64,000 nucleotides of DNA. It comes from Candidatus Multivoradales bacterium (GTDB lineage: Bacteria; Acidobacteriota; Thermoanaerobaculia; Multivoradales; J023). The DNA is taken from contig CBDFLE010000006.1 of NCBI GenBank assembly GCA_965248925.1, positions 512,001 to 576,000 of the forward strand, given 5' to 3'. The notes under the pieces are model-generated. The model did not search any database. It worked only from the letters and a program-made list of their open reading frames with translations, and was not told the DNA's origin. Shown here in pieces: positions 2,390 to 21,770 of this stretch (position 1 is the stretch's first letter; the number at the start of each line of letters is the position of its first letter). The position numbers and the translations under genes were made by a program.

Positions 2390-5284
2390 CTACTTCCCAT
2401 TCTCGGTGACCGCACTTGGAGGACTTTCTGCCTCCTGACATGTGCCTTGCTGACTGCGAAACCTCCTCGCAAGCTCCTGCTCATGTTCCGCTACCTTCTC
2501 GCGTTGGCCCGATTGGCGATAGAAGTCCAAGACTCGTTGCAATGTGCGAATCGCTGGTGGGCTTGCCCTCCCAGGATTCTTATCTAGCGACCGGAGGCTT
2601 GCCAAAAGAAGCGATTCTGCTGCGGCAGATTCGCCAAGACCCATAAGCGAACAGCCTAGGATGCCTTTCGCATTCCAGTGCTTCCAGTGTCCAGCTGGCA
2701 ACTCTGCAGCAAGCGTGTTGATTGCTTCCTTTGCCAGCTCTTTCGACTTGGCGTAGTTCCCTCGGGCGCACTCCAAAATAGCGATCTGAAGATGGACATC
2801 TGCGACGTGTTCATGGTGCTTACCTAGATCTCGTTCGCGAATCTGAAGCGCACGGTTGAGTACCTCTTGAGACTCGCTAAGTGACCCCTGATCCAGAAGA
2901 ATCGCTCCTAGTTCATGAAGCGCTTGAGCGGCCTTTAGGCTATCCGTCCCGACTAGCTCCGTTTCGATAGATAGCGCTTCTCGCGAATAGAGCTCGGCCC
3001 TATCCAGAGAGCTTCTGGAACGGTGGACCTTCCCGAGGCTGACCAGAATAAATGGCAGTATGGGAGGAGGCTTTGTCGCCTGGCGAACGAGTTGGAGGGC
3101 GGTTTCGAGGTGCTTTTGGGCGTCGCAGTAGTTGCCTTGTAACCAGAGCACTTCTGCAAGATAAACTGCTGTAGTTTGTGTTAGATGATGTTGTTCGCCG
3201 AGTAGCTGGCGTCTTGTTTCAAGAGCTCTCGTTATGAGCTCCGTAGCTTGTTGTAGGTCGCCTTTGTATTGGTGGAGAAACCGTCCGTAGCTTGTGTAGC
3301 TGTAGGCAAGATGTGAGTGTGGATCTTGGAAGAGGCGCTTGCGCATCTCAAGAGCTTCTAGATAAAGCGGCTCGGCCTCGCTCTCTTTGCCGCGATCTCT
3401 GAGCAAAATGGCTAGGTTGTCTATGCTCTTTGCGAGTTCGATGTGGTCGCCTGGATATGCCTGTCTAAGAACTGCCAGAGCTCGGCGGTCGAGCTTTTCT
3501 GTTGCCTCAAGGTTACCTCGTATCCAGAAAATCGTTGCTAGGTTATTCAGGCTATATGCTGTCTCTTCATGTTGCTCTCCCAGCTGCGAGAGCCGGATTT
3601 CAAGTGCCTGTCGGAACATGTCTTCTGCCTCGTCATATTCTCCCAGCTCCTGCTTCAAAGTTGCCAGGTCGTTGAGAGCAGAGGCATGCTGGGCACTTTC
3701 CCGCCCCATAGCCTTCAGCGAGTCACCGACCGATGATTGAAGGTGGCCCTCAGCCTTACCGAACAGGCCTAGGACGCGATAGATTTCTCCGATAACTCCT
3801 TCTACCTCTGCGCGAATAGCGGGTTCTTGGGCCAGCTCTTCGTAGACTTTCTGTGATCCGTTTTCGAGAACCTGGGCTACTGCAATGGCTCCAACATGCG
3901 CTTCGTCGGGCTCGGAGTTCTCGAAGAGGCCAATAAGGAAACGTCGAGTAACATTGGCCTGCCGAAGGCGGTGCTGGGCCAGGTCGCGCTGACGAACGGT
4001 TTCTTGGTACTGTCCCCACAACGCAAATGCCGCGATTCCAATGACAACCAAGAAAAGCCCGGCGATGGCGAGCCCAATCCGGTTCCTCTTGAGGAATTTT
4101 CGAGCCTTGTAGCCAGGGCTCGGCTCGCGAGCGTCGATAGGAAGGCCCGTGAGGTACTTCTCTATATCGTCGGCAAGCTTCTGAACGGTGGGATAACGCC
4201 TACCTGGCTCCTTCCGCAGCGCCATCAAGACGATGGTGTCGAGATCACCTTCGAGCTTCCGTTTGAAGCTGGCGGTCGTGGGATCGGTGGCAGGCGGGTC
4301 TTCCGATGACTCGGATTTGCTCGTCTCCGTCAATACCGTGCTGGGAGGTTCTGGTGTCTGGTCACAGACGATACTCCGGATTTCTTTCTCAGCCTGCGCT
4401 TTCAGACGGTAAGGACGATTGCCAGCGAGTAGTTCGTAGAGCAGGATGCCCAAGGAGTACACGTCGCTGGCAATGTGGATATCCTGACCGGTGATCTGCT
4501 CAGGGCTGGCGTAGTCGGGGGTGAAGAGCTTCTGGTCGCCGCCGGTGAGCACAGTGACGCCGACGTTTACCGCTGCACCCTCTTCCGCGAGCAACTTGGC
4601 CACACCGAAGTCGAGAAGCTTGGGTTCACCGTCGGTGGTTACCAGTACATTGCTTGGCTTGAGATCGCGATGGATGACGAGCTTGGTGTGGGCGTATTGC
4701 ACCGCGTCGCAGACTTTCTGGAAGAGTCGCAATCGGTCTTCCAGGGAGAGCTTCTCATCGCGGCAGTAGGCGTCGATCCTTTTCCCCTCGATGTACTCCA
4801 TTAGGTAGTAGAGGCGGCCGTCTTCGGTTCGGCCACCACTGTGGAGCTGGGCGATATTGGGGTGCTTGAGTTTGGCAAGAATGCCCATTTCCTGAAGAAA
4901 ACGCTGCTCGGCTTCGTCGCTCGTCTGGCCTGCCGGCAGGGTTGCCTGAAGGACTTTCAGGGCAACTTCGTGTTCGAATTCGTCCCCGATTCTGCTCGCC
5001 AGGTAGACGATTCCCATGCCGCCGCTGCCGAGTTTCCGAATGACCCGATACGCACCGACCTCGCTGTCTTTTTCGAGTTCATCCGTCTCACCGAGAATCC
5101 GGATGGGTGACTGCTCCATGAAGTCGACCTTCTCCAAGTCGGCATTCAGGAAGGACTCGACCTCTTGATGCAGCTCGCGGTCGTCGCCGCAGGCTTGATC
5201 CAGGAAGGCACTTCTTTCTTCACCGGAAAGCTCCCGAGCTTCCAAGGCGATGCTTCTGACGATCTTCCAGCGTTCAGAGTCCAT
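2390..5284 (-). CDS. Hanks-type Ser/Thr protein kinase with TM helix and C-terminal TPR array (ECF-associated kinase)
   Basis: GSGGMGIVY, VALK, HRDLKPSN, DFG and TPDYASPEQ motifs; TM segment; many TPR repeats; N-terminal MDSERWKIVR...ERSAFLDQACGDD typical of ECF-linked kinases. Confidence 0.95.
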   Translation of the reverse strand: MDSERWKIVRSIALEARELSGEERSAFLDQACGDDRELHQEVESFLNADLEKVDFMEQSPIRILGETDELEKDSEVGAYRVIRKLGSGGMGIVYLASRIGDEFEHEVALKVLQATLPAGQTSDEAEQRFLQEMGILAKLKHPNIAQLHSGGRTEDGRLYYLMEYIEGKRIDAYCRDEKLSLEDRLRLFQKVCDAVQYAHTKLVIHRDLKPSNVLVTTDGEPKLLDFGVAKLLAEEGAAVNVGVTVLTGGDQKLFTPDYASPEQITGQDIHIASDVYSLGILLYELLAGNRPYRLKAQAEKEIRSIVCDQTPEPPSTVLTETSKSESSEDPPATDPTTASFKRKLEGDLDTIVLMALRKEPGRRYPTVQKLADDIEKYLTGLPIDAREPSPGYKARKFLKRNRIGLAIAGLFLVVIGIAAFALWGQYQETVRQRDLAQHRLRQANVTRRFLIGLFENSEPDEAHVGAIAVAQVLENGSQKVYEELAQEPAIRAEVEGVIGEIYRVLGLFGKAEGHLQSSVGDSLKAMGRESAQHASALNDLATLKQELGEYDEAEDMFRQALEIRLSQLGEQHEETAYSLNNLATIFWIRGNLEATEKLDRRALAVLRQAYPGDHIELAKSIDNLAILLRDRGKESEAEPLYLEALEMRKRLFQDPHSHLAYSYTSYGRFLHQYKGDLQQATELITRALETRRQLLGEQHHLTQTTAVYLAEVLWLQGNYCDAQKHLETALQLVRQATKPPPILPFILVSLGKVHRSRSSLDRAELYSREALSIETELVGTDSLKAAQALHELGAILLDQGSLSESQEVLNRALQIRERDLGKHHEHVADVHLQIAILECARGNYAKSKELAKEAINTLAAELPAGHWKHWNAKGILGCSLMGLGESAAAESLLLASLRSLDKNPGRASPPAIRTLQRVLDFYRQSGQREKVAEHEQELARRFRSQQGTCQEAESPPSAVTENGK

Positions 5285-9139: not shown

Positions 9140-10714
9140 ATGCCGAGAGTGAGGACATCGATGCGCAAGATACGCGAGGTACTGAGACTGAAATGGCAGC
9201 ATGGCCTGTCGCACCGCCAGATCGGACGGTCGGTTCGGCTGGGCCACGGGACGGTGTGCAACTACCTGCTGCGAGCCAAGGTTGAAGGCCTGAGCTGGGA
9301 GCAAGTAGCAGCTTTGAGCGACGCTGAGCTGGAGCAACGCCTGTACCCTCGGCCGCAGCCGCTTCGGAGGGGTGGTCAGCGAGCCTTGCCCGACTGGACC
9401 AAGGTGCATGGCGAGCTGAAGAAGAAGGGCGTAACCCTGTCGCTGCTGTGGCAAGAGTACCGGGAGGACCATCCTGACGGCTACGGTTTCAGCCGCTTCT
9501 GTCAGCTGTACCGGATCTGGGAAGGGCGCCTGGATGTGTGCCTGCGCCAAGCCTACCGGGCGGGCGAGAAGCTGTTCGTCGACTATGCCGGACAGACCGT
9601 GAGGGTGATCGACCCGGCGACTGGCAAAGCGCGCGAAGCGCAGATCTTCGTGGCGGTGCTGGGGGCGAGCAACTACACCTATGCCGAATCAACGTGGAGC
9701 CAGGGCCTGGAGGACTGGATCGGCTCTCATGTGCGGACCTTCGCGGCTCTGGGCGGGGTGAGCGAGCTGGTGGTGCCGGACAATCTGAAGAGCGGCGTGA
9801 CCAGCCCGTGCCGCTACGAGCCGGAGATCAATCGCACCTACGCGGAGTTGGCCGAGCACTACGGCGTGGCGGTGGTGCCGGCGCGGGTGAGGAAGCCCCA
9901 AGACAAGGCGAAGGTCGAAAACGGTGTATTGCAAGTGGAGCGCTGGATTCTGGCCCGGCTGCGTAACCAGCAGTTCTTCAGCCTGCGAGAGCTCAACGAG
10001 AGCATCGCGAAGCTTCTGGTCGAGCTTAACGACCGTCCGCTGAAGGTGTTGGGCGTCTCGCGCCGAGCGCTGTTCGAGCAGGTCGATCGTCCTGCTCTGG
10101 GTGCTTTGCCGCTCCAGCCCTACGAGCTTGCCGAATGGAAGAAGGTACGCGTTGCCCCGGACTACCACGTCGAGTTCGAGGGCCACTATTACAGTGTGCC
10201 GTACCAGCTGATCAAGAAGCAGCTCGATCTGCGGGCGACGGCGCAACTGGTGGAGGTGCTCGATCGCGGCAAGCGTGTGGCTGCTCATCGTCGCAATCGG
10301 TGTCGGGGTCGGCACACGACCCAGAGCGAGCACATGCCCAAAGCGCACCAGGCGTACCTGGAGTGGACACCGACACGGCTGATCAGCTGGGCGGCGAAAA
10401 CAGGCCAGGCGACGGCCGAACTGGTGGAGACCATCATGCTTAACCGCTCCCATCCTCAGCACGGCTTTCGCTCGTGTCTGGGGCTGATGCGCCTGGGCAA
10501 GACCTATGGTGCCAATCGTTTGGAGGCTGCGTGCCGCCGCGCGCTCGCCATTCACGGCCTGTCCTACAAGAGCGTGAAGTCGATCCTGAAGAGCGGCCTG
10601 GACCAGCAAGCAGCGCCCGAGCCCACCGAAGTGACGGCGCCGATCGAGCACCACAACGTCCGCGGCGCCAGCTACTACAGTGCCGCGCGCCGCGAGGAGA
10701 CGCCGCCATGCTGA
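9140..10714 (+). CDS. istA: IS21 transposase IstA
   Basis: N-terminal HTH, FVDYAG, VPDNLKSGV and KAKVE DDE motifs. Confidence 0.97.
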   Translation: MPRVRTSMRKIREVLRLKWQHGLSHRQIGRSVRLGHGTVCNYLLRAKVEGLSWEQVAALSDAELEQRLYPRPQPLRRGGQRALPDWTKVHGELKKKGVTLSLLWQEYREDHPDGYGFSRFCQLYRIWEGRLDVCLRQAYRAGEKLFVDYAGQTVRVIDPATGKAREAQIFVAVLGASNYTYAESTWSQGLEDWIGSHVRTFAALGGVSELVVPDNLKSGVTSPCRYEPEINRTYAELAEHYGVAVVPARVRKPQDKAKVENGVLQVERWILARLRNQQFFSLRELNESIAKLLVELNDRPLKVLGVSRRALFEQVDRPALGALPLQPYELAEWKKVRVAPDYHVEFEGHYYSVPYQLIKKQLDLRATAQLVEVLDRGKRVAAHRRNRCRGRHTTQSEHMPKAHQAYLEWTPTRLISWAAKTGQATAELVETIMLNRSHPQHGFRSCLGLMRLGKTYGANRLEAACRRALAIHGLSYKSVKSILKSGLDQQAAPEPTEVTAPIEHHNVRGASYYSAARREETPPC

Positions 10715-11472
10715 GGCACGCGACGCTCGATCAACTCGCCGCGCTCAAGCTCCACGGTATGGCCAAAGCCTTTGAGGAGCAGCTGTCGATGGTCGATGTC
10801 TCAGAGCTCTCCTTCGAAGAGCGCCTCGGGCTGCTGGTCGAGCGCGAAGCGACCGAGCGATCCAGCCGCCGCTTGATAGCGCGGTTGCGAAAAGCCAAGC
10901 TGCGCGAGCAGGCGGCCATCGAAGACATCGACTGGCGAGCCAAGAGGGGCCTGGACAAAGGCCAGATCCTGCGCCTGGCCTCGTGCCAGTGGATCGCCGA
11001 GCATCTCAACGTGCTGATCACCGGCAAGGCCGGGGTGGGCAAGACCTTTCTCGCCTGCGCCTTCGCGCACAAGGCATGTCGGGAGGGTTACACCGCTTTG
11101 TACCTGCGGGTGCCGAGGCTGTTTCGCCAGCTCGCCATCGCGCGGGGTGATGGTAGCTACGAGAAGCTGCTCAAGAGCTATGCTCGCACAGACCTGCTCA
11201 TCCTCGACGACTGGGGGCTGGCGCCGATCGGGGCCAGCGAGCGGCGCGACCTGCTCGAGATTCTTGAGGACCGCTACGGCAACCGCTCCACGCTGGTGAC
11301 CTCCCAGCTACCGGTTGAGAGCTGGTACGAGGTCATCGGCGATCCGACCTTGGCCGACGCCATCCTCGATCGCATTGTCCACGGCGCCTACAAGCTCGCG
11401 GTGGACGGTGACTCCATGCGGGCGAAGAGAGCCGGCGGTATTCGCAAGGCCGCCCAGCGAGAGGCAAGGTGA
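10708..11472 (+). CDS. istB: IS21 helper ATPase IstB
   Basis: Walker A GKAGVGKT, Walker B LLILDDWG, ADAILDRIVH; ATG at 10708 overlaps the end of istA. Confidence 0.97.
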   Translation: MLRHATLDQLAALKLHGMAKAFEEQLSMVDVSELSFEERLGLLVEREATERSSRRLIARLRKAKLREQAAIEDIDWRAKRGLDKGQILRLASCQWIAEHLNVLITGKAGVGKTFLACAFAHKACREGYTALYLRVPRLFRQLAIARGDGSYEKLLKSYARTDLLILDDWGLAPIGASERRDLLEILEDRYGNRSTLVTSQLPVESWYEVIGDPTLADAILDRIVHGAYKLAVDGDSMRAKRAGGIRKAAQREAR

Positions 11473-12134: not shown

Positions 12135-12235
12135 GGGGGTCGTGGGGGCAGCGCCCCTACGCAAGATAGGACGCTCTGCGGACGGTGCAATTGGGCGGAC
12201 GAGCTGTGCTCGGCTGCCCAATTGCAATCTTGCCC
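12135..12235 (-). other. Candidate oriT (IncP-like nick region plus inverted repeat)
   Basis: Minus-strand CCTATCTTGC (12161-12170) resembles the RP4 nick region CCTATCCTG^C; adjacent hairpin TGCAATTGGGC...GCCCAATTGCA (12186-12226); upstream of mobC-relaxase. Confidence 0.55.
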
Positions 12236-12388
12236 CTGCTTTGCGGGGCCACTGCTCAGTGCTCATTTGCGATTGGGCTGCGCTGCTATGCACGTGCAGT
12301 CCTTGCGCTGTACACTTTCGCTGGCCAGAAGCCGGCAAAGCAGCAGCTATCATTCGAGGCAATCATTCGCTGTCGAGAAGGACGGGCC

Positions 12389-15300
12389 ATGACACCGGAT
12401 TTCACCTACGACGTTTTCTTGAGTCACAGCTCTCAGGACAAGCTCGCCGTGCGCGCTCTGGCAGAGCGATTGCGAGAGGACAGAATAAGAGTCTGGTTCG
12501 ATGAGTGGAAGATTGGCCCCGGCGACAGTATTCCAGCGAAGATCGAAGCAGGACTGGAGCAGTCGCGTGTGCTCGTGCTTTGCATGTCGGACAGTGCGTT
12601 CGGCTCTGACTGGGCGCAGCTAGAGGCCGGCACGTTCCGCTTTCGCGATCCACTGAACAGCGATCGCCGCTTCATCCCGTTGCGGCTCGACGATGCTCCC
12701 ATCAGAGGCTCCCTCGCTCAATTTCTCTACATCGACTGGCGGATTGAGGATCATGAGCAAGCCTACCTCGGATTGCTCAAGGCCTGTCGGGAGACCGAGC
12801 CAGGAAGTGCAACCGACATGCAGGATGAGAAATGGTGGTCGCGCGCGAAGCCACAGGATGTCGCCGCTCATGGGCCATCGAGGGATGACTTCCCTAAGAA
12901 GACCAAAGACACCCTTTCCCGAAGAGTAGGAATGAGGTGCTCCAATCCAGACTGCCGACAAACGACAAGCGGCCCACAATCCGATCCCGACAAAGCCATC
13001 AATATAGGTGTTGCCGCCCACATCACCGCTGCTTCGTCAGGCGGGCCGCGATATGACGGATCGCTTTCAAAGGTAGAGCGTTCTTCGATCCAGAATGGCC
13101 TCTGGCTCTGCCAGAACTGCGCGAAATTGGTGGATAGCGACGTAGGACGATTCACCGTCGAGTTGCTCCAAGAATGGAAGAAGAATGGGGAGAGGTCGGC
13201 TCAACGAGCGTTGGAGACCAGTGCGAGCATTGCTAGCGATATTGGCGATGCCGCCACCGACCGAAAGACGAGTGCTGCGAAAAGGAAGATCGACAAGGCG
13301 CAGGAGCTAGCTCGTTCAGGAAAACTCAGCGAAGCAATAGCGGAGGCTCTTGAGTCCCTCGAGATTGCGCGGAACGAGAACGACGAAGAGCAAGAGGTGG
13401 AAACCTTGCTCGCCTTAGCGCTGCTCTCGTCGGATCGACAAGGGATCGGAGACAGACTTCACTATTTTCAAGAAGCTGAGAAGAAAGTCGACAAGATCAA
13501 GGCACCTGCGGCTAAGGCTATCTACTTGCGCGCGAAGGCAGCAGTTCTGGGTGAGCAAGGCGACACCTCAGGAGCCGAGGCGCTCTACAAAGAGGCGCTC
13601 GACATCTGTTCGAGGGAGGAGGACGACGAGAAAAGAAATCTTGCGACTCAAGCGTGCATCTTGCGGTCAGACTATGTCCATCTCCTTTGCGGTGAGAAGA
13701 GATATGAGGAGGCGGAAGCAGTTCTAAGGGCGTGTGAAGATTATGCGCGCGACAACCGCGATGCTAGGAACACAGAACTCCTTGGGGCGGCGCTGGAGGC
13801 CGGGATACATCTGTACCTCGATACTAAGGACAAGGAAGGAGCCGTGGCCCGAATCGAAGAACTTGAAGCTGCGGCCACCACGATAAGGCTAGCGGATCGT
13901 ATCGGCGGCGAGCTCCTCAATATCGCGAATCACGCGGCCCACAGAAAGATGTATGGCGCTGCCCTTCGCGCGGCAGAAGCGAGCATACGGTTGGGTCACC
14001 GCTGTGATGATGGCAAGTCGCCGGGCTTCCTGATCGGAGCGTTGTATACCGAGGCAATGATCTTGGCGAAATCTGGTGATGAGATGGCGCTAACCAAGGC
14101 CCAAGCAGTACTGAGCGCCTGTTGTAGGCCAGAGGATCAGGCCGTCAGACAAGCGGCCAGCCAGCTGATCGCGGAGATACGACGGACAGCTGGCGATTCA
14201 GAGTCGGCAGTTGATCTCGCGCGCGGGGCCTTAGCGTTGGCCACAGGAGGGCCAGAGAACATCGCTTTCTCGAAGTCTGCGCTGGCCCGAGCGCTGAATG
14301 ACAACGGCCAAACTGAGGAGGCGTTCAATGAGGCGAGCGAGGCGTGGGCGCTACTTGAGCAAGCTAGTATTCCGCCTAAAACGGCACTGGATGTTCTGGC
14401 TCAGGTAACCAACTATGGATCGCAGATCGGCAACGACGCTGGTGTTCGGAGCGCACTCGACACGATCGCTGTGTTACCAGACGAGGAGGGGGAACTCGAG
14501 GAGGAGAAGACCCGTGTCGTCGCGCGGGCGGATGCTAACCGTCAGATTAGAGAGAGGATTCTGGAGATATCAACGCCGTCGAGTTCAGAAGATGGCCCGA
14601 ATATCGAGGCAGGTGTAGCCACTCTCCAGGACGCGAACGCGAGAGTTGTCGAGCAGTTAATCGGCCTTTGGGATGAAGTACCGGAAGCCGCCGGAGGAAT
14701 CTATGACTTCTGGGGTCGGGGCAATTTTGTGCGCCTGCTCGAGAATGCTCGGCGTTACCCAACTAGTTTTAATGTAACAGTCGAGGTGCGCAGTTTAGAG
14801 GACGTGAAACGAGCGATTCGCCTGTGGGGCCTCTACGCTGATTTTCTTCTGCTTCTCTGGAAGGGCGAGTCTCAGAGTGGGCTGGCCATCGTGCCCTTTC
14901 CGCGAGATTTCAAGGGGCCCGGAGGCTGGGGCTACATTGTGGCTATGGGCGACGAAATGAAGGTCGAAGGCTCATCGAAAATATGGCATGGCGCGTTGGC
15001 GCAGATTTCAAGTATCCCGGACGATGTAGCTGCATTTCTTGCAACTGAAGCCCGGCGGTTTGTGGAGACGGGTCGCCTGATTGTCGTGTCGGCTCCAGCT
15101 GTAGGTTGCACCAACCCAGGTCACGGACCGTTTGAGCAGCTGCTCGCTGAGAGTGCAAACGCGATCCCAAGCGTACGCTGGAAGGGCTTTGAAGGTGAGC
15201 CGATTGGTCTTGTGCCGTACTCCCCGAACGCACCGTTGGAACTGCTAGCTGAGCTGACAGAGATCGAGGATGACCGGCTAAGGAAGCTGAGACTTCTTCT

Positions 15301-15709
15301 CGTTGAGCGGAGCAGACAGCTAGTGCCTGGCAATGAAGTGAAGGCCGGTGCAAGAATATTAGCTCTGGAGATTGACGACGCATTGCGTGACCTGACTGAT
15401 AGGACGGATGCCTTCTCTCGTAGGAAGGGACTGGAAAGAGCAGCCGAGCCACTGTGCGCTGGAATCGCCCGCTTTAGACGTGAGGGACTGGCACTGTCTG
15501 ACGAGGCTTCTCACTCCCCATTTGCACCGCTGTTCGTACTCCAGAGCTTAGGATACGGGTGGCGAGTTGACAGCGGGGCGATACCGAAGCCCCCAGGGCG
15601 TTTCCAGCCAGAGTCCGGTGACATCGTTGGGACATGGTTGGCTCCACCAACAGCGGGCTGGACGGTACCTATCATGCGCGCTGTCGATGCCGATGATAGG
15701 GAGACTTGA
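12389..15709 (+). CDS. TIR + HNH-like nuclease + TPR + unknown C-terminal domain fusion; putative defence protein
   Basis: TIR (YDVFLSHSSQDK...SDWAQLE), Zn/HNH-like (RCSNPDC...AAHITAASSGGPRYD...NGLWLCQNC), helical TPR-like middle; ATG at 12389 with AAGGA upstream. Confidence 0.85.
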   Translation: MTPDFTYDVFLSHSSQDKLAVRALAERLREDRIRVWFDEWKIGPGDSIPAKIEAGLEQSRVLVLCMSDSAFGSDWAQLEAGTFRFRDPLNSDRRFIPLRLDDAPIRGSLAQFLYIDWRIEDHEQAYLGLLKACRETEPGSATDMQDEKWWSRAKPQDVAAHGPSRDDFPKKTKDTLSRRVGMRCSNPDCRQTTSGPQSDPDKAINIGVAAHITAASSGGPRYDGSLSKVERSSIQNGLWLCQNCAKLVDSDVGRFTVELLQEWKKNGERSAQRALETSASIASDIGDAATDRKTSAAKRKIDKAQELARSGKLSEAIAEALESLEIARNENDEEQEVETLLALALLSSDRQGIGDRLHYFQEAEKKVDKIKAPAAKAIYLRAKAAVLGEQGDTSGAEALYKEALDICSREEDDEKRNLATQACILRSDYVHLLCGEKRYEEAEAVLRACEDYARDNRDARNTELLGAALEAGIHLYLDTKDKEGAVARIEELEAAATTIRLADRIGGELLNIANHAAHRKMYGAALRAAEASIRLGHRCDDGKSPGFLIGALYTEAMILAKSGDEMALTKAQAVLSACCRPEDQAVRQAASQLIAEIRRTAGDSESAVDLARGALALATGGPENIAFSKSALARALNDNGQTEEAFNEASEAWALLEQASIPPKTALDVLAQVTNYGSQIGNDAGVRSALDTIAVLPDEEGELEEEKTRVVARADANRQIRERILEISTPSSSEDGPNIEAGVATLQDANARVVEQLIGLWDEVPEAAGGIYDFWGRGNFVRLLENARRYPTSFNVTVEVRSLEDVKRAIRLWGLYADFLLLLWKGESQSGLAIVPFPRDFKGPGGWGYIVAMGDEMKVEGSSKIWHGALAQISSIPDDVAAFLATEARRFVETGRLIVVSAPAVGCTNPGHGPFEQLLAESANAIPSVRWKGFEGEPIGLVPYSPNAPLELLAELTEIEDDRLRKLRLLLVERSRQLVPGNEVKAGARILALEIDDALRDLTDRTDAFSRRKGLERAAEPLCAGIARFRREGLALSDEASHSPFAPLFVLQSLGYGWRVDSGAIPKPPGRFQPESGDIVGTWLAPPTAGWTVPIMRAVDADDRET

Positions 15710-15887
15710 GGGGCGGACAGCGAGTCCTTCTGGAGCGTGTCGAGCCTGGACTCTTCTCTAGCTGGGCGGCGGACGAAGGCTCGATAGTTCAATCTCTGGC
15801 TTCAGGGCTGCCCCTTTTCATGGCGGGTCATTCGACCGGCCGCCGCAGGAGCCCAAAATAGGGAGGTGACTTTCATCCCTACTATCC

Positions 15888-17018
15888 ATGACCTCCGCAT
15901 CACGCCCACGTCTCATCGCCGAGAACCTCACCCAGATCCGCCAAAACACCAACTGGCGCCAGTTCTTCGAAGCCCTGAAGCTCCCCAGAGACCCCAAGAA
16001 ATCCAAAGACCACGACTGGTGGGCCAAGAGCCCCTTTCGACCTGACGAGCGTACTGCCTCGTTCCATATGAACGCTCGCGGCTGGTATTGCCACGCTACA
16101 AGCCAGGGCGGCGGCCCCATCGAATTGGTGCAGCGTCTCCATCCGGGAATGCACTGTTTCGATGCTGGCCGATGGCTTCTGGAGCATGGCGTCAGCCGCG
16201 TTGTATCGGATGTTCGGGAAGATCTTCATCTTCTCGAAGGCGCAGATACCGTTCAGTCCGAGAAGGAGCCCTCGAACGAGCCAGTCCGGCAGGATCTCCG
16301 GAGCCAGCTCTCCGCGAACCACCGGCTCTGCGCCGCTCGGGGCGTCCCTTCCGAGATCTACCGAGAATTGGGTGCTGGCTTCCTGGATCGGCCAATTCGG
16401 AAGAATGGGAGACCCGATCCACTGAACCACCGAATCGTGTTCCAGATCCGGGGACTCAAGGAGAACGAGACCGGAGAGCTTCATGCCGTTGTCCTCGGTC
16501 ATATGGGCCGAGCGACAACAGAAGACCAGGCCGACCGGGATGGCAAATGGTGGACGTATGCAGGATTCAAGAAAAGTCTGGAGCTGTACAACCTCGACCA
16601 CGCGATCCTTGACGATGAGGCCGTTGACCAAGCCAAGGGTACCGAGCATCTTCTCGTCGTGGAGGGACTGTTCGATGTCGCCAGGCTCTACGCCGCCGGC
16701 ATTCGCAACGTGGTCGCTACTTTCGGCGCCAGCCTCAGCACAGCTCAGCTCAGGCGACTCGATCTCATCAGCGAGATGGTCGGTGTCAACCGGTTCATCA
16801 TCTTCTACGATCGAGACCGGGCTGGACACAAGGGTGCCAAGAAGGCTCTTGAGGCGATTACGGCTTCGGGGCTCGGCATTCAGGCTGAAGTCTTCGATTG
16901 GAACCGCGTCTGGGAATCGACCGTCCGAGGTGATGTCGGCATTCCCGCATCGATCACCGATCCCGCCGAGTTCTCCCTCGGGCAGCTTCAATGGCTCCGT
17001 CATGAGGGGATCCTGTAA
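15888..17018 (+). CDS. DnaG-like primase (degenerate CHC2 zinc-finger region + Toprim)
   Basis: SPFRPDERTASF...WYCHATSQGGGPIELV; Toprim VVEGLFDV...ATFGASLS...FYDRDRAG. Confidence 0.85.
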   Translation: MTSASRPRLIAENLTQIRQNTNWRQFFEALKLPRDPKKSKDHDWWAKSPFRPDERTASFHMNARGWYCHATSQGGGPIELVQRLHPGMHCFDAGRWLLEHGVSRVVSDVREDLHLLEGADTVQSEKEPSNEPVRQDLRSQLSANHRLCAARGVPSEIYRELGAGFLDRPIRKNGRPDPLNHRIVFQIRGLKENETGELHAVVLGHMGRATTEDQADRDGKWWTYAGFKKSLELYNLDHAILDDEAVDQAKGTEHLLVVEGLFDVARLYAAGIRNVVATFGASLSTAQLRRLDLISEMVGVNRFIIFYDRDRAGHKGAKKALEAITASGLGIQAEVFDWNRVWESTVRGDVGIPASITDPAEFSLGQLQWLRHEGIL

Positions 17019-17030
17019 CCGTCCTCGCCC

Positions 17031-17918
17031 ATGAAGATCTCCAGCTTCCACCGGGAGTTCAAGCATTACGCGCTTCTAGGGAAAGGCATGACCAACGGCG
17101 TCTACCGCTCAATCGGCTACACCCTTCGGATGCTGTGTCGATATGCGGCGACTGAAGAAATCGGCTCGTTGACGCCGGACATGATTCGCGCTTTTCTCTA
17201 CTACGGACGAAGCGAGCGCGGCTGGGCGGCAAAGACCTACCGAAATCACTGGCAGTACCTCAAGATCTTCTTCGACTTCTGTCAGCGGCAAGGCTACGTC
17301 CGCTCCAATCCCGTCGAAGGAATCGAGAAGCCGAAGCTCCCGGAGCGACTCCCACGTTGCCTTTCTCACGAAGACTCCTTGAAAGTCCTGGCATACTCGT
17401 ACGGCTACGATTGGCGGTACCACCTTGAAGCTGCACGGAATCACGCGATCATCGCGACTCTGATGATGACCGGCCTCCGGCTGCAAGAGCTTCTGAATCT
17501 CGAAGTCCACGATCTCGACCTGTCGGGGTGCGGGATTCTCGTGAGGCGAGGGAAGGGCCGCAAGGATCGGCTCGTTCCTGTTTACCACAAACTTCTGCCC
17601 ATCCTTCGTAACTTCCTGGAAGCGAAGCGCCAGTCTGGGAAAATCTCTCGCTGGCTGTTCACGGGCGTCAAGTCTGACAAGCAGCTCGCGCAAAAGGACG
17701 TTCGTCGGATCTGCCAAAGAATCTCCGTCGCCTGCGGTGTCAAGTTCACTCCTCATGTTCTCCGGCACACCCTCGGCCGCGAGCTGGTAGACAACGGCGT
17801 CGATATCAAGACGGTGCAGCGAATCTTTGGTCACGCTCAGGTGACCACCACCGAGATCTACACTCATCTTTCTACGCGAGCGTTCAATGGGAATTTTCAA
17901 AGGGCGAGAATCTTTTGA
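17031..17918 (+). CDS. Tyrosine recombinase/integrase (XerC/D-like) 1
   Basis: TGLR, GKGRK, HVLRH, FGH and TTEIY catalytic motifs. Confidence 0.95.
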   Translation: MKISSFHREFKHYALLGKGMTNGVYRSIGYTLRMLCRYAATEEIGSLTPDMIRAFLYYGRSERGWAAKTYRNHWQYLKIFFDFCQRQGYVRSNPVEGIEKPKLPERLPRCLSHEDSLKVLAYSYGYDWRYHLEAARNHAIIATLMMTGLRLQELLNLEVHDLDLSGCGILVRRGKGRKDRLVPVYHKLLPILRNFLEAKRQSGKISRWLFTGVKSDKQLAQKDVRRICQRISVACGVKFTPHVLRHTLGRELVDNGVDIKTVQRIFGHAQVTTTEIYTHLSTRAFNGNFQRARIF

Positions 17919-18049
17919 CAGATCGCGAGGAAATCTCTACGGTGTGGATACCTGCCTTCAGGTCGCTGAACATCGGAAGCCCATCTTTGGGTCACCCATC
18001 GGAATGCCGCATAGGAACTTGCATTACGGGACTTGAAAGCCACTGAGCT

Positions 18050-18096
18050 GGCTCATAACCCGAAGGTCGCAGGTTCGAGTCCTGCCCCCGCAACCA
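18050..18096 (+). other. 3' fragment of initiator tRNA-Met (att-like site)
   Basis: GGCTCATAACCCGAAGGTCGCAGGTTCGAGTCCTGCCCCCGCAACCA matches the anticodon loop (CAT), T-arm, acceptor 3' strand and CCA of tRNA-fMet; the 5' half is absent. Confidence 0.9.
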
Positions 18097-18185
18097 ATAT
18101 CCGCTACAGGAGCGGACTCCGAAGAATCGACAGTCCGACAAAGAAGGTTCAGCGACCACAGGGCAGAGCCCTATGGTCACTGGCT

Positions 18186-19112
18186 ATGTCTGAAATTGAA
18201 CAACTCCATCGGCAATTCTGCGAGTTCTCGCTGACCTTCAAAGCGAATACTCCACGGACGATCAAGTGGCTCCGCGCCACGTTCGCCGATTTTCTGCGCG
18301 GGACTGAGTTGACCAGCGCGACGCAGCTCGACCGAAGAACAATCGAGAACTGGATCGTCCGCAAGAAGCTGGAGAACAGCTGGTCCGCGAAATCGGTGCG
18401 GAACAATCTCCAAGCCTTGAGCCTCTTCTGCGACTGGCTGGTTCGGGAGGAGTATCTGGTCGAGAATCCGACATCCCAAATCCCGAAACCCAAGCTGCCA
18501 CATACAATCCGTCCGCATCTGACGGTAGAGACAGCCCAGGATCTTCTCGACTGGACGCGGAACTTCCCGTTTGGGTATGCCTTCGAGCGAGCGCGAGCCA
18601 CGGCCATTCTCTCCACCTTCCTCCACACCGGCATTCGCCTGGAAGAGCTGAGAAACCTCCACTGCGTCCATGTCGACCTCGAAAACCGCTCCCTATTCGT
18701 GGAGAAGGGAAAATGCCAGAAGGATCGAATCGTTCCGTTCGGCCTACCGCTAGTGGAGGCGCTTCAGGAGTACTTGCGCCATAGAACCAGATTGAAGAAG
18801 AGCTGCCCCTATTTCTTTGCGGCGATGCGGCAAGACAGCCAGATGGGAGACTCGGTGATCAAGCGGCTCGTTTCCAGGCTGCGCGACAAGAGCGGGATCT
18901 ACTTCTATCCACACATGCTGAGGCACACCTACGCCACATTGATGTTGCAGGGCGGGGCCGACATCAGGGCGGTGCAAGAACTGTTGGGCCACGCCTCGAT
19001 CCTTTCGACACTGCCGTACCTGCATACGACGACGGCGCATCTCCAGGCGCAGATCCAAAAGTATCCGCTCAATGTAGATTGGCAGGGGCCTCACGGCATC
19101 AAGGGCCTCTGA
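18186..19112 (+). CDS. Tyrosine recombinase/integrase (XerC/D-like) 2
   Basis: TGIR, GKCQK, HMLRH, LGH and STLPY motifs; ATG at 18186. Confidence 0.95.
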   Translation: MSEIEQLHRQFCEFSLTFKANTPRTIKWLRATFADFLRGTELTSATQLDRRTIENWIVRKKLENSWSAKSVRNNLQALSLFCDWLVREEYLVENPTSQIPKPKLPHTIRPHLTVETAQDLLDWTRNFPFGYAFERARATAILSTFLHTGIRLEELRNLHCVHVDLENRSLFVEKGKCQKDRIVPFGLPLVEALQEYLRHRTRLKKSCPYFFAAMRQDSQMGDSVIKRLVSRLRDKSGIYFYPHMLRHTYATLMLQGGADIRAVQELLGHASILSTLPYLHTTTAHLQAQIQKYPLNVDWQGPHGIKGL

Positions 19113-19161
19113 ATGAATGAAATCTCAGACTTCGCCGGTTCGCCTCTGGCCAGACAGCCAG

Positions 19162-19992
19162 CTAGCGGTCGACTTTCAAACGAGCGCGGAGTTCGGCGAG
19201 GTTCTCCTCGATGTGGCTCGGGATAGGCACTTGCCGGTTAAGGGTTTCACGAAGAACCTGATACTTCTCATGCCATTGCCGGAAGTCCCGAAGTTCTTCT
19301 TTAAGCGAAAAGGCAAGAGCCTCGACGCAGGTGACGGCAACCATGGTGTACAAGTTGCAGAGGTTTCGAAGCACCTCTTCGTCGAGAGGACCACCGAATC
19401 TTCCCGCGAAGGCAAGCCCTCTGCCTATCTGCCCGCCATCCTGAAAGCTAGTGAACGCTGACGTCACCGGGAGGACGCTAGCATGCCCAAGAGGAGCCGT
19501 AATCAACCATGCCGTCCTGAGTCTTTGGAAAAGTTCACTCGGTATTGAGTCGAGTCTCCGTAGAACCGAACCCCCGGTGCCCTGTCGTGAATTCCAGACC
19601 TTCTGAAAGTCTGCCGGTGAGTGGACGCTGAAAACTTGGAAGATCGAGGCTTCTGCGGCCCCTCGCGAAAGCGTTAGGCTCACACGCGGATGAGCAATAA
19701 CGCTGCTGAACCAGCCCCATAAGAGATGATCGGCGGCGAAGCAGGCGAGGGCGACAGAGAGTCTGGGTGTCTCCGAAAAGTCCTGGCCGGAGAGAACATT
19801 GAGCCCACCAAGGTGAAGCTCGAACGCGGGTTTCAGTACAACGGCTTCAAGCTCGCGTACGATCTCTTTCGATTCAGGATGGGCATTGGCCGTGATCCAT
19901 TGATTGTAGGTCTTCTCGGCACTCTCAAATGCCTCAGCCTCCGTGAGCGTGGGGGCAACCTCCTCGCGAGAGGGCAGTTTCTGATGAGTCAT
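19162..19992 (-). CDS. Hypothetical protein, possibly HEPN-like helical fold
   Basis: 276-aa ORF; LSRGAAE and ...APLGH motifs loosely resemble HEPN-superfamily patterns. Confidence 0.65.
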   Translation of the reverse strand: MTHQKLPSREEVAPTLTEAEAFESAEKTYNQWITANAHPESKEIVRELEAVVLKPAFELHLGGLNVLSGQDFSETPRLSVALACFAADHLLWGWFSSVIAHPRVSLTLSRGAAEASIFQVFSVHSPADFQKVWNSRQGTGGSVLRRLDSIPSELFQRLRTAWLITAPLGHASVLPVTSAFTSFQDGGQIGRGLAFAGRFGGPLDEEVLRNLCNLYTMVAVTCVEALAFSLKEELRDFRQWHEKYQVLRETLNRQVPIPSHIEENLAELRARLKVDR

Positions 19993-20051
19993 TGTCTTGC
20001 CTCAGAATTCGCGTAAGCGCCTTTGTAGTATGTTTGTTGTCGCGGCGTATT

Positions 20052-21377
20052 CTACTGGGCCGAGGACTTGACGAACAGGAAGCCGACTCCACAAGAGGGT
20101 GGGGACAACCAGTGGAAATGACCATCCTCCAGTGAATCCGGAGCAGTCTTCCTTCGTTGGAGTTTGTGTCGACGAAGAGGCATTCGACGACGCCGAAACG
20201 GCTTTCTCCGCCCCAAATCCCAAAGCAAGTACAAGGGATTCCGGCGAAGCTCCAGGCCGCTGTCAGAGGCCTGTCGAAGACACTCGCAAAGTCCTGCCGC
20301 GGCAACTCCTCCGGCAGCCGCCACGAGAGCTGTCCCAACTGCTCCAGTTGCTCCAGCCGCACTTCCTAGCGCGGCTGCGGTGGTGCCAACAATGCCTCCC
20401 AGCCCCGTTACTGTTGCTCTGAACCGACGAGCCCGATCTGAAAGAGCCAGCTCCGAGACCTCGTAGTTGAGTTCCGAAACAAATTCCTCTAAGCGGTCAT
20501 GAGGAGAGGCCTCAGCAAGTCGGCGAAACGCGACTCGTAGGCGTTCAAGTTCAACAGGGGAATCCGCCATCATGCTGTCGAACTCTGCGGGTGCCATCCC
20601 GTCCAACACCGGAAGATCAAGTGATAGCAGCTTTTCCTCGGTTTGACTCAGCATCGCGCTATCCCGGAGAGGGAGCGCTCCCACAAGATTCTCGAAGCCA
20701 GTGCGAACATCGTCGGCGGCGGACGACAGTCCAATCAGCTCTTCCGGCGCAACAAAGACATCACCGCGTGAGAACGCGAGTGGTCCTTCTTCGACGATCC
20801 AATCCCCGACGACTTCTGGTAGCAAGCGAGCGTAGCCAAAGATCTCAGACCAGAGTCGACCGCGCATCTTTATCTCGTTGGTGATCGCTAAGTATCCCCA
20901 CCCAGCATCCCAGAGGCTGTCGGGTTCGCCCGGATGGAGATGCGACACTCGCACTGGTCTACTGAGTGCTCCTCGCCATAGGAATTCAATTGGAACCCCA
21001 AGCAACGCTAGTCGGCGATATGTCCAACGCATCTCGTCGACGAATTGAACTGAGACTTGGAGTGGACGGACTGCGTTTAGGTTGTTGTGGATCAGCCGCC
21101 GCGCATAGTTTCCGCGAGCCCAGAAGTCCAAAGACGCCGAGCGGCCCCTAGCTGACTTCATCCAATCCAGCAGCAGATCGTATTTCGGCGCTGGTGGTTT
21201 ACCAGAGGGGTAAGACGAGAGATCGAATGGCGTCGCTGGGTACGCATATAGCTCCGCCGAGCGGGGGTCTTTACCATCGATCGTGATCCTAGCTTTCGGT
21301 TCCAATTTGGCAGGATCCCTTTCCTGATGTCGTGGTCTCTGACCTTGGTTGCGTCGACTTTGGCAATCAGATTGCAC
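20052..21377 (-). CDS. Hypothetical protein homologous to the C-terminal domain of the TIR-HNH-TPR protein; start uncertain
   Basis: Shares collinear DFWxRGN, LW[KR]G, GWGY, PL[YF]xLxxLG and WLxPP motifs; has an extra Gly/Ala hydrophobic segment. Confidence 0.8.
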   Translation of the reverse strand: MQSDCQSRRNQGQRPRHQERDPAKLEPKARITIDGKDPRSAELYAYPATPFDLSSYPSGKPPAPKYDLLLDWMKSARGRSASLDFWARGNYARRLIHNNLNAVRPLQVSVQFVDEMRWTYRRLALLGVPIEFLWRGALSRPVRVSHLHPGEPDSLWDAGWGYLAITNEIKMRGRLWSEIFGYARLLPEVVGDWIVEEGPLAFSRGDVFVAPEELIGLSSAADDVRTGFENLVGALPLRDSAMLSQTEEKLLSLDLPVLDGMAPAEFDSMMADSPVELERLRVAFRRLAEASPHDRLEEFVSELNYEVSELALSDRARRFRATVTGLGGIVGTTAAALGSAAGATGAVGTALVAAAGGVAAAGLCECLRQASDSGLELRRNPLYLLWDLGRRKPFRRRRMPLRRHKLQRRKTAPDSLEDGHFHWLSPPSCGVGFLFVKSSAQ

Positions 21378-21520: not shown

Positions 21521-21695
21521 GAATCGGTGCGACCGATTCCGGCGCGATGGTCACCAGGAAGAAGGTCTTTGCGGCAGCCTTGAGGTCCGACCAAGTTCGT
21601 CAAAGCGCCACAGATTACTCTCTACGGTGGTTACTCAGTGGTTACTTTGTCGATCGCGGCGAGAGGGGGAATCTGTCGTAAGTTATTGAATCTAA

Positions 21696-21770
21696 TGGAG
21701 CCGATGAGCGGATTTGAACCGCTGACCTGCTGATTACGAATCAGCTGCTCTACCCCTGAGCTACATCGGC
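21696..21770 (-). tRNA. tRNA-Thr(CGT)
   Basis: GCCGATGTAGCTCAGGGGTAGAGCAGCTGATTCGTAATCAGCAGGTCAGCGGTTCAAATCCGCTCATCGGCTCCA folds as a cloverleaf, anticodon CGT, encoded CCA. Confidence 0.97.

What the first reader, a model, noticed from the sequence alone, without database searches (positions are those of the whole stretch)
17031..19112. Two intact tyrosine recombinases sandwiching a tRNA-fMet 3' fragment (att site in mid-island)
Int1 (17031-17918) and Int2 (18186-19112) are co-oriented and both keep the R-K-HxxR-H-Y residues. Between them is a 47-nt tRNA-fMet 3' half beginning at the anticodon stem/loop, a known crossover position for tRNA-targeting integrases. An att fragment normally marks an island edge, yet here mobile DNA lies on both sides and the nearest intact tRNA is Thr on the opposite strand. 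Possible readings: an unrecombined attP of a two-recombinase (XerC/D-like heteromeric) element captured within a tRNA-Thr island, or a junction between tandemly accreted elements.
Basis: partly seen in the sequence, partly recalled or inferred. Interest (0 to 1): 0.7.

Follow-up and report, generated by a model that had tools for sequence, protein, structure and literature searches.

The report
Two-integrase attachment site inside an island
Two related integrase genes flank an unused attachment site that copies the last 47 bases of the initiator tRNA, inside a mobile island that entered this genome at a different tRNA using a third integrase; the paired layout recurs across several bacterial phyla.

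Summary
Int1 (17031-17918) and Int2 (18186-19112) are intact Xer-like tyrosine recombinases. Between them, 18050-18096 matches 43 of 47 bases of the 3' part of the host's only initiator tRNA, which lies 2.5 Mb away.

The locus sits in a 46.4-kb island with conjugation-type genes. The island is bounded by exact 48-bp repeats of tRNA-Thr(CGT) and has its own P4-like integrase at the far end. The fMet site is therefore an unrecombined attP, not an island edge.

Toprim-Int1-tRNA fragment-Int2 recurs in 5 loci of 4 related Acidobacteriota genomes. The fragment is fMet-like in two and tRNA-Pro(GGG)-like in three. All five share three accessory motifs at fixed positions, and these motifs covary.

Relatives of Int2 sit directly downstream of intact tRNAs. 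One lies behind an initiator tRNA with the same downstream arm. A deeper paralogue pair shows the predicted integrated layout, tRNA-IntB...IntA-fragment. All 11 Int1-clade genes found have an Int2-clade neighbour, and the two proteins co-diverge (r = 0.85).

Joint, heteromeric action is inferred, not shown. I rate it a new variant of a known kind, of moderate to high interest.

The parts
15888..17018 (+). Toprim/DnaG-like primase gene, 12 nt upstream of Int1. It is a conserved left neighbour of the module.
   Evidence: Pfam Toprim_4 E 1e-13; NCBIfam dnaG domain E 6e-24, below cut-off. Homologues at 55-59% identity lie directly upstream of Int1 in G004:C228, G044:C6, G004:C43 (cut by the contig end) and G017:C369.
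17031..17918 (+). Int1, 295 aa. A Xer-like simple tyrosine recombinase, the A-type partner.
   Evidence: PF00589 E 1e-33. XerC/XerA/XerD NCBIfam matches are far below cut-off. Catalytic residues are invariant in 24 family members. The family has about 70 clusters, nearly all 295 aa.
17952..17971 (+). P-arm accessory motif P1 (forward copy of ..GCC-N4-GGTCGC..). It is an inverted repeat of P'1.
   Evidence: the repeat finder I1: 20 nt, 85% complementary to 18147-18166. It holds the same position in 5 loci. 9 of 20 pairs change on both sides, and 0 of 500 shuffles reach the score.
18050..18096 (+). attP core: the 47-nt 3' part of an initiator tRNA, from the last pair of the anticodon stem through ACCA.
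   Evidence: 43 of 47 to the host tRNA-fMet. 45 of 47 to the tRNA-Met that precedes an Int2 relative in L029. Homologous loci carry fMet-like or Pro(GGG)-like fragments that start at the same tRNA position.
18147..18182 (+). P'-arm accessory motifs P'1 (reverse) and P'2 (forward). They form a 13-3-13 palindrome (18152-18180) that ends 5 nt before the Int2 ATG.
   Evidence: 13 pairs, 84.6% paired in 5 loci, 4 pairs with changes on both sides, covariation reached by 0 of 500 shuffles. The same palindrome follows the intact tRNA-Met in L029.
18186..19112 (+). Int2, 308 aa. A Xer-like simple tyrosine recombinase, the B-type partner that sits next to the tRNA.
   Evidence: PF00589 E 6e-33. 31% identical to Int1 without a single gap over 290 aa, and each is the other's best paralogue in the genome. 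Relatives sit directly downstream of intact tRNAs.
19162..21377 (-). Two ORFs of unknown function (276 and 441 aa) between Int2 and the island edge. This is variable cargo.
   Evidence: No Pfam, NCBIfam or PADLOC match. No homologue in the related islands.
21628..21647 (+). GGTTACT-type repeat inside the island next to attL. A 20-nt copy lies next to the far repeat at C6:487506-487525. Probably an arm site of the P4-like integrase.
   Evidence: 100% over 20 nt; sequences.
21696..21770 (-). tRNA-Thr(CGT), the island's real insertion site. Its 3' 48 nt (21696-21743) are repeated exactly at C6:487341-487388, 24.6 kb left of the window, beside a 387-aa P4-like integrase (C6:487542-488705, +).

Best explanation
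The locus is an intact, unrecombined attP-type attachment region of a two-integrase integration module. The core is a copy of the 3' 47 nt of an initiator tRNA, so the crossover is placed in or next to the anticodon loop. The core is flanked by three copies of a roughly 14-nt motif that resembles the core's own right half-site (anticodon-stem 3' strand, variable loop, start of the T stem). One copy lies about 100 nt upstream; an inverted pair lies about 90-110 nt downstream and abuts the Int2 start. Two paralogous Xer-like recombinases without an arm-binding domain are encoded on either side. Recombination with a tRNA gene would rebuild the tRNA, leave Int2 directly behind it, and carry Toprim-Int1 to the far end beside the displaced tRNA fragment. 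The module belongs to the backbone of a 46.4-kb island with conjugation-type genes (T4CP, Replic_Relax, TrwB-like ATPase). In this genome the island inserted at tRNA-Thr(CGT) with a separate P4-like integrase, so the fMet site stayed unused and the host's tRNA-fMet is unoccupied. Shown: the anatomy, its conservation, the switch of tRNA identity, the integrated forms in relatives, and the linkage and co-divergence of Int1 and Int2. Inferred: that the motifs are recombinase-binding sites, that Int1 and Int2 act together on one site (about 50% on its own), and that the module is still active.
For: 1. Island bounds: an exact 48-bp tRNA-Thr repeat 46.4 kb away, a P4-like integrase beside it, and shared 20-nt arm-like repeats.
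2. The genome holds a single copy of the fMet fragment. The only initiator tRNA is 2.5 Mb away, and the Int1/Int2 tblastn lists of the genome show no hit near it.
3. Toprim-Int1-fragment-Int2 occurs in 5 loci of 4 genomes: G000, G004:C43, G004:C228, G017:C369 and G044:C6. Protein identity is 36-61%, and the fragment is fMet-like in 2 loci and Pro(GGG)-like in 3.
4. G044:C6 is likewise bounded by 115-bp repeats at tRNA-Phe, with a P4-like integrase 60% identical to G000's, and its module is internal and unrecombined.
5. P1, P'1 and P'2 hold the same positions and orientations in all 5 loci and covary.
6. Integrated counterparts exist. L029 has an intact tRNA-Met, the same P' palindrome and an Int2 relative at 49%. 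Seven further loci have an intact tRNA within 140 nt upstream of an Int2- or S-clade gene: L034, L035, L036, L037, L038, L039 and L132. L038 reads tRNA-Thr, B-type integrase, about 7 kb, A-type integrase, then a 44-nt tRNA 3' fragment that shares only the anticodon loop and the acceptor end.
7. Pairing: 11 of 11 loci with an Int1-clade gene also hold an Int2-clade gene, within 2.8 kb. Distance matrices correlate at r = 0.85 for 15 pairs (Mantel 0 of 5000) and r = 0.78 for the 8 pairs seen in loci (1 of 5000).
8. In the tree, Int2 and S form one side of a branch (SH-aLRT 95), and Int1 and X are the partner lineages.
Against: No locus with the tandem Int1-att-Int2 layout was found in the recombined state; all 5 are in attP form. 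The Pro-type fragments match each other (91%) far better than any tRNA of their own hosts (at most 81% over 37 nt). In those hosts the site may therefore have no usable target, or it may serve another purpose. Six of 17 loci with an Int2-clade gene show no Int1, although 4 of these lie on short or cut contigs and one gene is truncated. Several S-clade integrases behind tRNAs have no partner within 10 kb (L034, L039, L130). The left half of the core is unlike the tRNA (5 of 14 by my own reading of the sequences). Only 5 sequences, two of them close kin, support the covariation, and the tested pairings were derived from G000 itself. The tree used the quick method (Int1 clade 91, Int2 clade 83). 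Seven of the 15 pairs in the Mantel test are inferred only from equal contig lengths. No read-level evidence of activity could be obtained.
Confidence: 0.7

Rival explanations
1. The module is a resolution or maintenance system. Int1 and Int2 recombine two copies of the site in multimers of the excised circular island, as Xer does at cer or TnpI at the IRS. The tRNA-like core is a leftover of an ancestral integration site.
For: All 5 tandem loci are unrecombined, and at least two of the islands insert with a different P4-like integrase. The Pro-type cores have no close tRNA in their hosts. The design, a core plus accessory copies of the same motif, resembles TnpI/IRS (abstract of PMC2847244).
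Against: The core keeps tRNA identity from the anticodon loop to ACCA in both tRNA types, which a resolution site does not need. Close relatives are found integrated at intact tRNAs with the same P' arm. L038 shows the split layout that integration predicts.
Confidence: 0.12
2. Int2 alone is the integrase for this attP. Int1 is linked but does a separate job: a second specificity, a regulator or directionality factor, or a spare copy.
For: Single integrases of the sister S clade sit behind tRNAs with no partner within 10 kb in L034, L039 and L130. The position of Int1 relative to Int2 varies: tandem, or convergent with a 3-nt gap.
Against: 11 of 11 Int1-clade genes have an Int2-clade neighbour. 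The two co-diverge through a change of target tRNA. Both keep all catalytic residues in about 24 aligned members each. A deeper paralogue pair (X/S) shows the same arrangement in at least 13 of 24 S-clade loci.
Confidence: 0.12
3. The locus is a decayed relic or an accretion junction. It would be the attR of one element abutting the start of another, or an attL whose tRNA 5' half was lost, with no present function.
For: The fragment differs from the host tRNA at 4 of 47 positions, and the island is a mosaic with IS elements.
Against: Both genes are intact. There is one copy of the fragment and no tRNA-fMet within 2.5 Mb. The junction, its spacing and its covarying motifs are conserved in 5 loci at 36-61% protein identity and across two tRNA identities.
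Confidence: 0.04

Closest known systems
tRNA-targeting tyrosine integrases with attP (phage P4, lambda-type, many genomic islands and ICEs)
   Same: The attP core copies the 3' part of a tRNA gene, so integration rebuilds the tRNA. The integrase gene lies directly downstream of the tRNA in integrated relatives. Repeated protein-binding-like motifs flank the core.
   Different: Int1 and Int2 are about 300-aa Xer-like proteins with no arm-binding N-terminal domain. There are two paralogous recombinase genes, one on each side of attP. The accessory motifs resemble the core half-site rather than a separate arm-type sequence.
XerC/XerD at dif, cer and psi, and elements that use Xer (recalled from general knowledge)
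   Same: They are the best family matches by sequence. A pair of paralogous simple recombinases is encoded together here, which would fit one protein per half of an asymmetric core.
   Different: Scores are far below the XerC and XerD equivalog cut-offs (172 and 162 bits against 335 and 330). The genes are carried by a mobile island, the site is tRNA-derived, and heteromeric action is untested.
TnpI/IRS of Tn4430 (abstract of PMC2847244 read)
   Same: A simple tyrosine recombinase whose core is regulated by adjacent accessory copies of its own binding motif, which set selectivity and the order of strand exchange.
   Different: TnpI is a single recombinase that resolves cointegrates. Here there are two recombinases and a tRNA-derived core, with integrated forms in relatives.
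Elements with two tyrosine recombinase genes: Tn6283 intA/intB (passages of PMC5991714 read), Prevotella MTnPi tandem integrases (passages of PMC4755523 read), Tn554 TnpA/TnpB (recalled)
   Same: Two recombinase genes in one integration module, with a suspicion that both are needed.
   Different: Tn6283 IntA (467 aa, with an arm domain) and IntB (731 aa) are unlike each other and do not target tRNA. [quoted passage not shown] None is described there as flanking a tRNA-derived attP.
Tripartite ICEs of Mesorhizobium with IntG, IntM and IntS (abstract of PMC5882170 seen in the listing)
   Same: One conjugative element that carries several integrases and several att sites, one of them recalled to target tRNA-Met.
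   Different: There each integrase acts alone on its own site and the element is split into three regions. Here the island is one piece, and the second site is unrecombined.

Membership tests
Tyrosine recombinase superfamily (PF00589) | Catalytic domain with the R-K-H-R-H/W-Y residues | tested here: met
   for both Int1 and Int2.
XerC/XerD chromosome dimer resolvases | Scores above the NCBIfam equivalog cut-offs (TIGR02224, TIGR02225) | tested here: not met
   Int1 172.4 and 162.4 bits, Int2 177.8 and 155.4 bits, against cut-offs of 335 and 330.
XerC/XerD chromosome dimer resolvases | Two paralogues act as a heterotetramer on one asymmetric site | not testable with these tools
   Only linkage (11 of 11) and co-divergence are available.
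tRNA-targeting integrase with attP | The attP core is identical to the 3' part of a tRNA gene from the crossover to the 3' end | tested here: met
   43 of 47 to the host tRNA-fMet positions 31-77. Pro-like cores in homologous loci start at the same tRNA position.
tRNA-targeting integrase with attP | Integrated state: intact tRNA, integrase, element, then a repeat of the tRNA 3' part | tested here: met
   Seen in relatives only: L029 and L038. Not seen for the tandem Int1/Int2 loci themselves.
Lambda/P4-type integrases | N-terminal arm-binding domain | tested here: not met
   Int1 and Int2 have only SAM-like core-binding and catalytic domains in 295 and 308 aa. The island's third integrase (387 aa) has a longer N-terminal part that I recognise, from recall, as P4-like.
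Integrative conjugative or mobilisable element | Direct repeats at a tRNA, an integrase, and conjugation genes | tested here: inconclusive
   Repeats and integrase are present. T4CP, Replic_Relax and a TrwB-like ATPase were found, but no mating-pair genes were recognised by Pfam.
Recombinase-in-trio or gamma-mobile-trio elements | Three adjacent recombinase genes of the RitA/B/C or GmtY/Z families | tested here: not met
   Only two adjacent genes. GmtY and GmtZ matches are at 23-31 bits against cut-offs of 340-600.

The most novel reading that the evidence does not exclude
Int1 and Int2 are the two halves of an obligate heteromeric integrase, a mobile-element counterpart of XerC/XerD. It arose by duplication of a tRNA-targeting simple recombinase and is spread over Acidobacteriota, Patescibacteria, Bacteroidota, Myxococcota and others. 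Because attP lies between the two genes, integration sends them to opposite ends of the element. Their joint expression, for example read-through from the Toprim-Int1 operon across attP into Int2, would then depend on whether the element is circular or integrated. In this island family the module is a second, tRNA-specific docking system kept alongside a P4-like integrase.
Probability: 0.4. Interest if true: 0.75.

Novelty: new variant of a known kind. Interest (0 to 1): 0.6.

Why it matters
tRNA-targeted integration is textbook, but it is described for single integrases, usually with an arm-binding domain. Here a conserved pair of short paralogous recombinases brackets attP, and the accessory sites mimic the core half-site. 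The pair co-diverges through a change of target tRNA, and a deeper paralogue pair shows the same design in several phyla. If both proteins are needed, this would be a natural heteromeric integrase that reads an asymmetric tRNA site. That bears on how simple recombinases gain directionality, on annotating islands that carry an integrase at each end, and on programmable tRNA-site integration tools. It also documents an island family that carries two independent integration modules, with anti-phage cargo concentrated beside the unused one. My four literature searches for paired or adjacent tyrosine recombinases and tRNA-derived attP sites found no description of this arrangement. They cover open-access full text only.

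Tried and rejected
I did not try again, so activity remains untested.
- Complex prediction of Int1 with Int2: no answer, score 0.00. This is evidence neither for nor against binding.
- Viral contigs: 80 loci were kept, best 33% identity, no family member.
- PLSDB plasmids: the listed best matches are at most 34% identical and are generic Xer-like genes. The phage record collection was not searched by protein.
- Phylum-wide sample: Int1 was found in 1 of 401 genomes, G000 itself. In the order: 6 of 300.
- The metagenome scan with the Int1 alignment mostly returned generic Xer-like genes; only L122-L136 were usable.
- The sigma-70 scan found no promoter in 15700-19300. The only terminator-like hit in the att region is the P'1/P'2 palindrome read on the - strand, and the count is no more than in shuffles.
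- The att region folds better than shuffles as single-stranded DNA (z = -3.4). I do not take this as evidence for a folded substrate, because inverted protein-binding sites give the same result.
- A search for a duplicated att copy around the 2.8-kb insert in G044:C6 found none, so the insert is not a cassette captured at the site.
- Rfam did not call the fragment at E up to 1.
- Earlier notes of this scan: none for this place or this sequence.
- Contigs of the closest database relatives (P0001 and P0122, 88-89%) could not be fetched. Their co-location rests on equal contig lengths only.
Full report
**Observation.** The window is G000:C6:512001-576000 of a 7.98-Mb, 62% G+C genome in six contigs.
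- Int1 (17031-17918, 295 aa) and Int2 (18186-19112, 308 aa) are open, co-oriented frames. Both match PF00589 at E about 1e-33 and carry SAM-like core-binding domains.
- Their best NCBIfam matches are XerC, XerA and XerD, far below the cut-offs. Their best solved relatives are the archaeal XerA-like protein 4a8e and XerD.
- In alignments of 24 family members each, the residues R, K, H-x-x-R, H and Y are invariant.
- Int1 and Int2 are 31% identical over 290 residues without a gap. Each is the other's closest paralogue in the genome.
- Between the genes, window 18050-18096 matches positions 31-77 of the host's only initiator tRNA (C6:3054153-3054229) at 43 of 47 bases. That tRNA lies 2.5 Mb away, and the genome has no other copy of the fragment.
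- The only tRNA in the window is tRNA-Thr(CGT) at 21696-21770 on the - strand.

**Where the locus sits.**
- The 3' 48 nt of tRNA-Thr (21696-21743) recur exactly at C6:487341-487388, 24.6 kb left of the window.
- Directly inside that far repeat lies a 387-aa integrase with a long N-terminal part, which I recognise from recall as P4-like. A 20-nt GGTTACT-type repeat lies just inside both ends.
- The 46.4-kb interval has lower G+C than the flank over its last 10 kb.
- It holds a T4 coupling protein, a Replic_Relax protein, a TrwB-like ATPase, a DNA methylase, HicB, three transposases, a kinase-TPR protein, a TIR-TPR protein and the Toprim primase.
- It is therefore one island with conjugation-type genes, inserted at tRNA-Thr by its own integrase. 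Int1-fragment-Int2 lies 2.6 to 4.7 kb inside its tRNA-proximal end.

**The module is conserved.** Among 61 relatives, 8 genomes have an Int2 match at E up to 1e-30. In 300 genomes of the order, 6 have an Int1 match. In a sample of 401 genomes of the phylum, only G000 does. A family-level relative carries a record title placing it in Acidobacteriota.
- Five loci in four genomes share the order Toprim, Int1, tRNA fragment, Int2: G000, G004:C43, G004:C228, G017:C369 and G044:C6. G044:C6 has a 2.8-kb insert carrying a PDC-S06 defence gene between Int1 and the att region.
- Int1 and Int2 identities to G000 are 61/57%, 37/36% and 42/42% for G004:C43, G004:C228 and G044:C6. G017:C369 has a 37% Int1 and the first third of Int2.
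- No intact tRNA lies beside any of them.
- The fragment is fMet-like in G000 and G004:C43.
- In the other three it has a CTGGGGG loop and a CCCCGACCA end. It aligns to G000's own tRNA-Pro(GGG) from position 34 to 77 at 32-34 of 44 bases.
- In all five, likeness to a tRNA begins at the same place, the junction of anticodon stem and loop.
- G044:C6 is bounded by 115-bp repeats (91% identical) at tRNA-Phe. A P4-like integrase 60% identical to G000's lies beside the distal repeat. So a second island of the family also inserted with the P4-like enzyme and kept the Int1-att-Int2 module unrecombined inside.
- Circularised, both islands have the same gene order: Int2, P4-like cassette, T4CP, Toprim, Int1. 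The module therefore belongs to the backbone rather than being a captured stranger.

**Anatomy of the site.** All five loci carry three copies of a motif of the form (T/A)G(C/T)C-N4-GGTC(G/A)(C/T):
- P1, forward, about 100 nt upstream of the copy inside the tRNA core;
- P'1, reverse, about 87 nt downstream;
- P'2, forward, about 110 nt downstream.

In G000 these are 17952-17971, 18147-18166 and 18168-18182. P'1 and P'2 form a 13-3-13 palindrome ending 5 nt before the Int2 ATG.

The motif resembles the stretch of the tRNA just 3' of the anticodon loop. By my own comparison of the sequences printed, G044 P1 and its core agree at 11 of 13 positions, and G000 P'2 and its core at 10 of 14.

Across the five loci:
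- the P1/P'1 inverted repeat keeps 79.6% of cells paired, with changes on both sides in 9 of 20 pairs (0 of 500 shuffles reach the score; slid controls at most 47% paired);
- the P'1/P'2 palindrome keeps 84.6% paired, with 4 of 13 such pairs (covariation reached by 0 of 500 shuffles; slid controls at most 56%).

Caveats: there are only five sequences, two are close kin, and the pairings were read from G000. I take the motifs to be recombinase-binding accessory sites, as in TnpI/IRS (abstract). This is an inference.

**Integrated counterparts.**
- The Int2 family is a distinct group of about 60 clusters (38-89% identity) above a sharp drop to generic Xer proteins. The Int1 family has about 70 clusters.
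- In a Peribacteria contig (L029), an intact initiator tRNA whose last 47 nt match the G000 fragment at 45 of 47 is followed by the same P'1/P'2 palindrome and an Int2 relative at 49%. That is the attL form of the G000 site.
- Intact tRNAs also lie 30-140 nt upstream of Int2-clade or sister-clade genes in L034, L035, L036, L037, L038, L039 and L132.
- A tree of 111 proteins (quick method) gives four groups. Int1 has 29 rows (SH-aLRT 91). Int2 has 35 (83). Its sister S has 25 (99), with Int2 and S together on one side of a branch (95). X has 13 (100).
- X genes lie about 370 bp upstream of S genes in seven loci. tRNA 3' parts or AACAGGTC-type repeats lie between them.
- X lies at the far end of the element in L035 and L038.
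- In L038 the order is tRNA-Thr(GGT) 9890-9963, S 9998-10894, X 17804-18748, then a 44-nt tRNA 3' fragment at 18960-19003. The fragment shares its first 9 nt (anticodon loop) and last 9 nt with the tRNA but differs in the T arm, 30 of 44 overall.
- This is the layout that a crossover in the anticodon loop of an attP lying between the two genes predicts.

**Are the two integrases a unit?**
- All 11 loci with an Int1-clade gene or gene part also hold an Int2-clade gene, within 2.8 kb. Five are tandem. Six are convergent: L025, L045 (the same place as L024), L031, L122, L124 and L029.
- Of 17 loci with an Int2-clade gene, 11 have Int1. The six without are L136 and L028 (contigs of 1.3 and 2.2 kb), L030 and L046 (gene near a contig end), L037 (2.6 kb of downstream sequence) and L022 (a truncated gene).
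- Pairwise distances among Int1 proteins and among their Int2 partners correlate at r = 0.85 for 15 pairs (Mantel 0 of 5000) and r = 0.78 for the 8 pairs verified in loci (1 of 5000). Seven of the 15 pairs are inferred from equal longest-contig lengths.
- Kinship and linkage alone can produce such a correlation. It shows stable co-inheritance through a change of target tRNA, not physical interaction.

**What speaks against an active integration site.**
- None of the five tandem loci is recombined.
- The Pro-type cores match each other at 91% but no tRNA of G004, G044 or G000 better than 81% over 37 nt.
- The initiator tRNAs of G004, G036 and G044 are intact, with no Int1 or Int2 within 1.5 kb.
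- This fits either an unused alternative docking module or a shift to another role, such as resolution of island multimers.

**Comparison and verdict.**
- The kind is known: a tRNA-targeting tyrosine integrase with an attP that repairs the tRNA.
- The variant is new as far as my searches show. Two paralogous arm-less Xer-like recombinases bracket attP, the accessory sites copy the core half-site, and the module is carried as a second integration system by an island that uses a P4-like integrase.
- The literature searches returned only looser parallels. These are Tn6283 intA/intB (passages), tandem non-homologous integrases in Prevotella mobilisable transposons (passages), tripartite ICEs (abstract in a listing) and TnpI/IRS (abstract).
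- In the tyrosine-recombinase classification paper PMC8138268, a term search for tandem, pairs, two YRs and heterotetramer found no such passage.
I did not check it.

Noticed in passing
window 12185-15709 (+), 2390-5284 (-); L020:2360-9753; L023:9550-11832; L021:12710-17636: The cargo beside the Int1-att-Int2 module is anti-phage in every island. G000 has a 1174-aa TIR, endonuclease-like and TPR protein and a PD-T4-6-like kinase-TPR protein. G004:C43 has Gabija GajA/GajB and a bSEFIR-TPR protein. G044:C6 has a PDC-S06 (AAA_13) gene inserted between Int1 and the P arm. G004:C228 has a type I restriction-modification system.
   Followed up: partly
L135:329-365 and 580-603; L040:9708-9743; L032:9443-9476 and 9604-9623: tRNA-Thr 5' parts lie upstream of S-clade integrases. 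In L135 they are about 215 bp from the matching 3' part. In L032 there are two 5' copies. They may be split or interrupted tRNA genes, or nested att sites.
   Followed up: no
L123:3033-3106; L127:2050-2435: In L123 a full-length tRNA-Lys-like gene lies between the X and S integrases, but by my reading of the sequence its acceptor strands do not pair, so it may be chimeric. In L127 the tRNA 3' fragment between the two integrases is inverted.
   Followed up: no
G011:C9:57033-57068 (L294): A further 36-nt fMet-like fragment (92%) in a relative, with no tRNA call and no Int1 or Int2 within 1.5 kb.
   Followed up: no
C5:837917-839065, C5:284851-285999, C6:1318164-1319025: The genome holds three more P4-like integrase genes, 52-61% identical to the island's. 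The C6 copy is broken into three frames. About 20 copies of another roughly 28-30% Int-like gene occur in clusters on C5, C6 and C4.
   Followed up: no
window 9140-10714 (+) and C6:499282-501102 (+): Two genes with a Mu-transposase C-terminal domain (one also with rve), plus an IS4-type DDE transposase at C6:491520-492677, lie inside the island. It is a mosaic.
   Followed up: no
G044:C6:77133-77207: ARAGORN calls a tRNA with the unusual anticodon ATT (Asn) about 7 kb beyond the tRNA-Phe island's distal repeat. Rfam also scores it as a tRNA at 58 bits.
   Followed up: no
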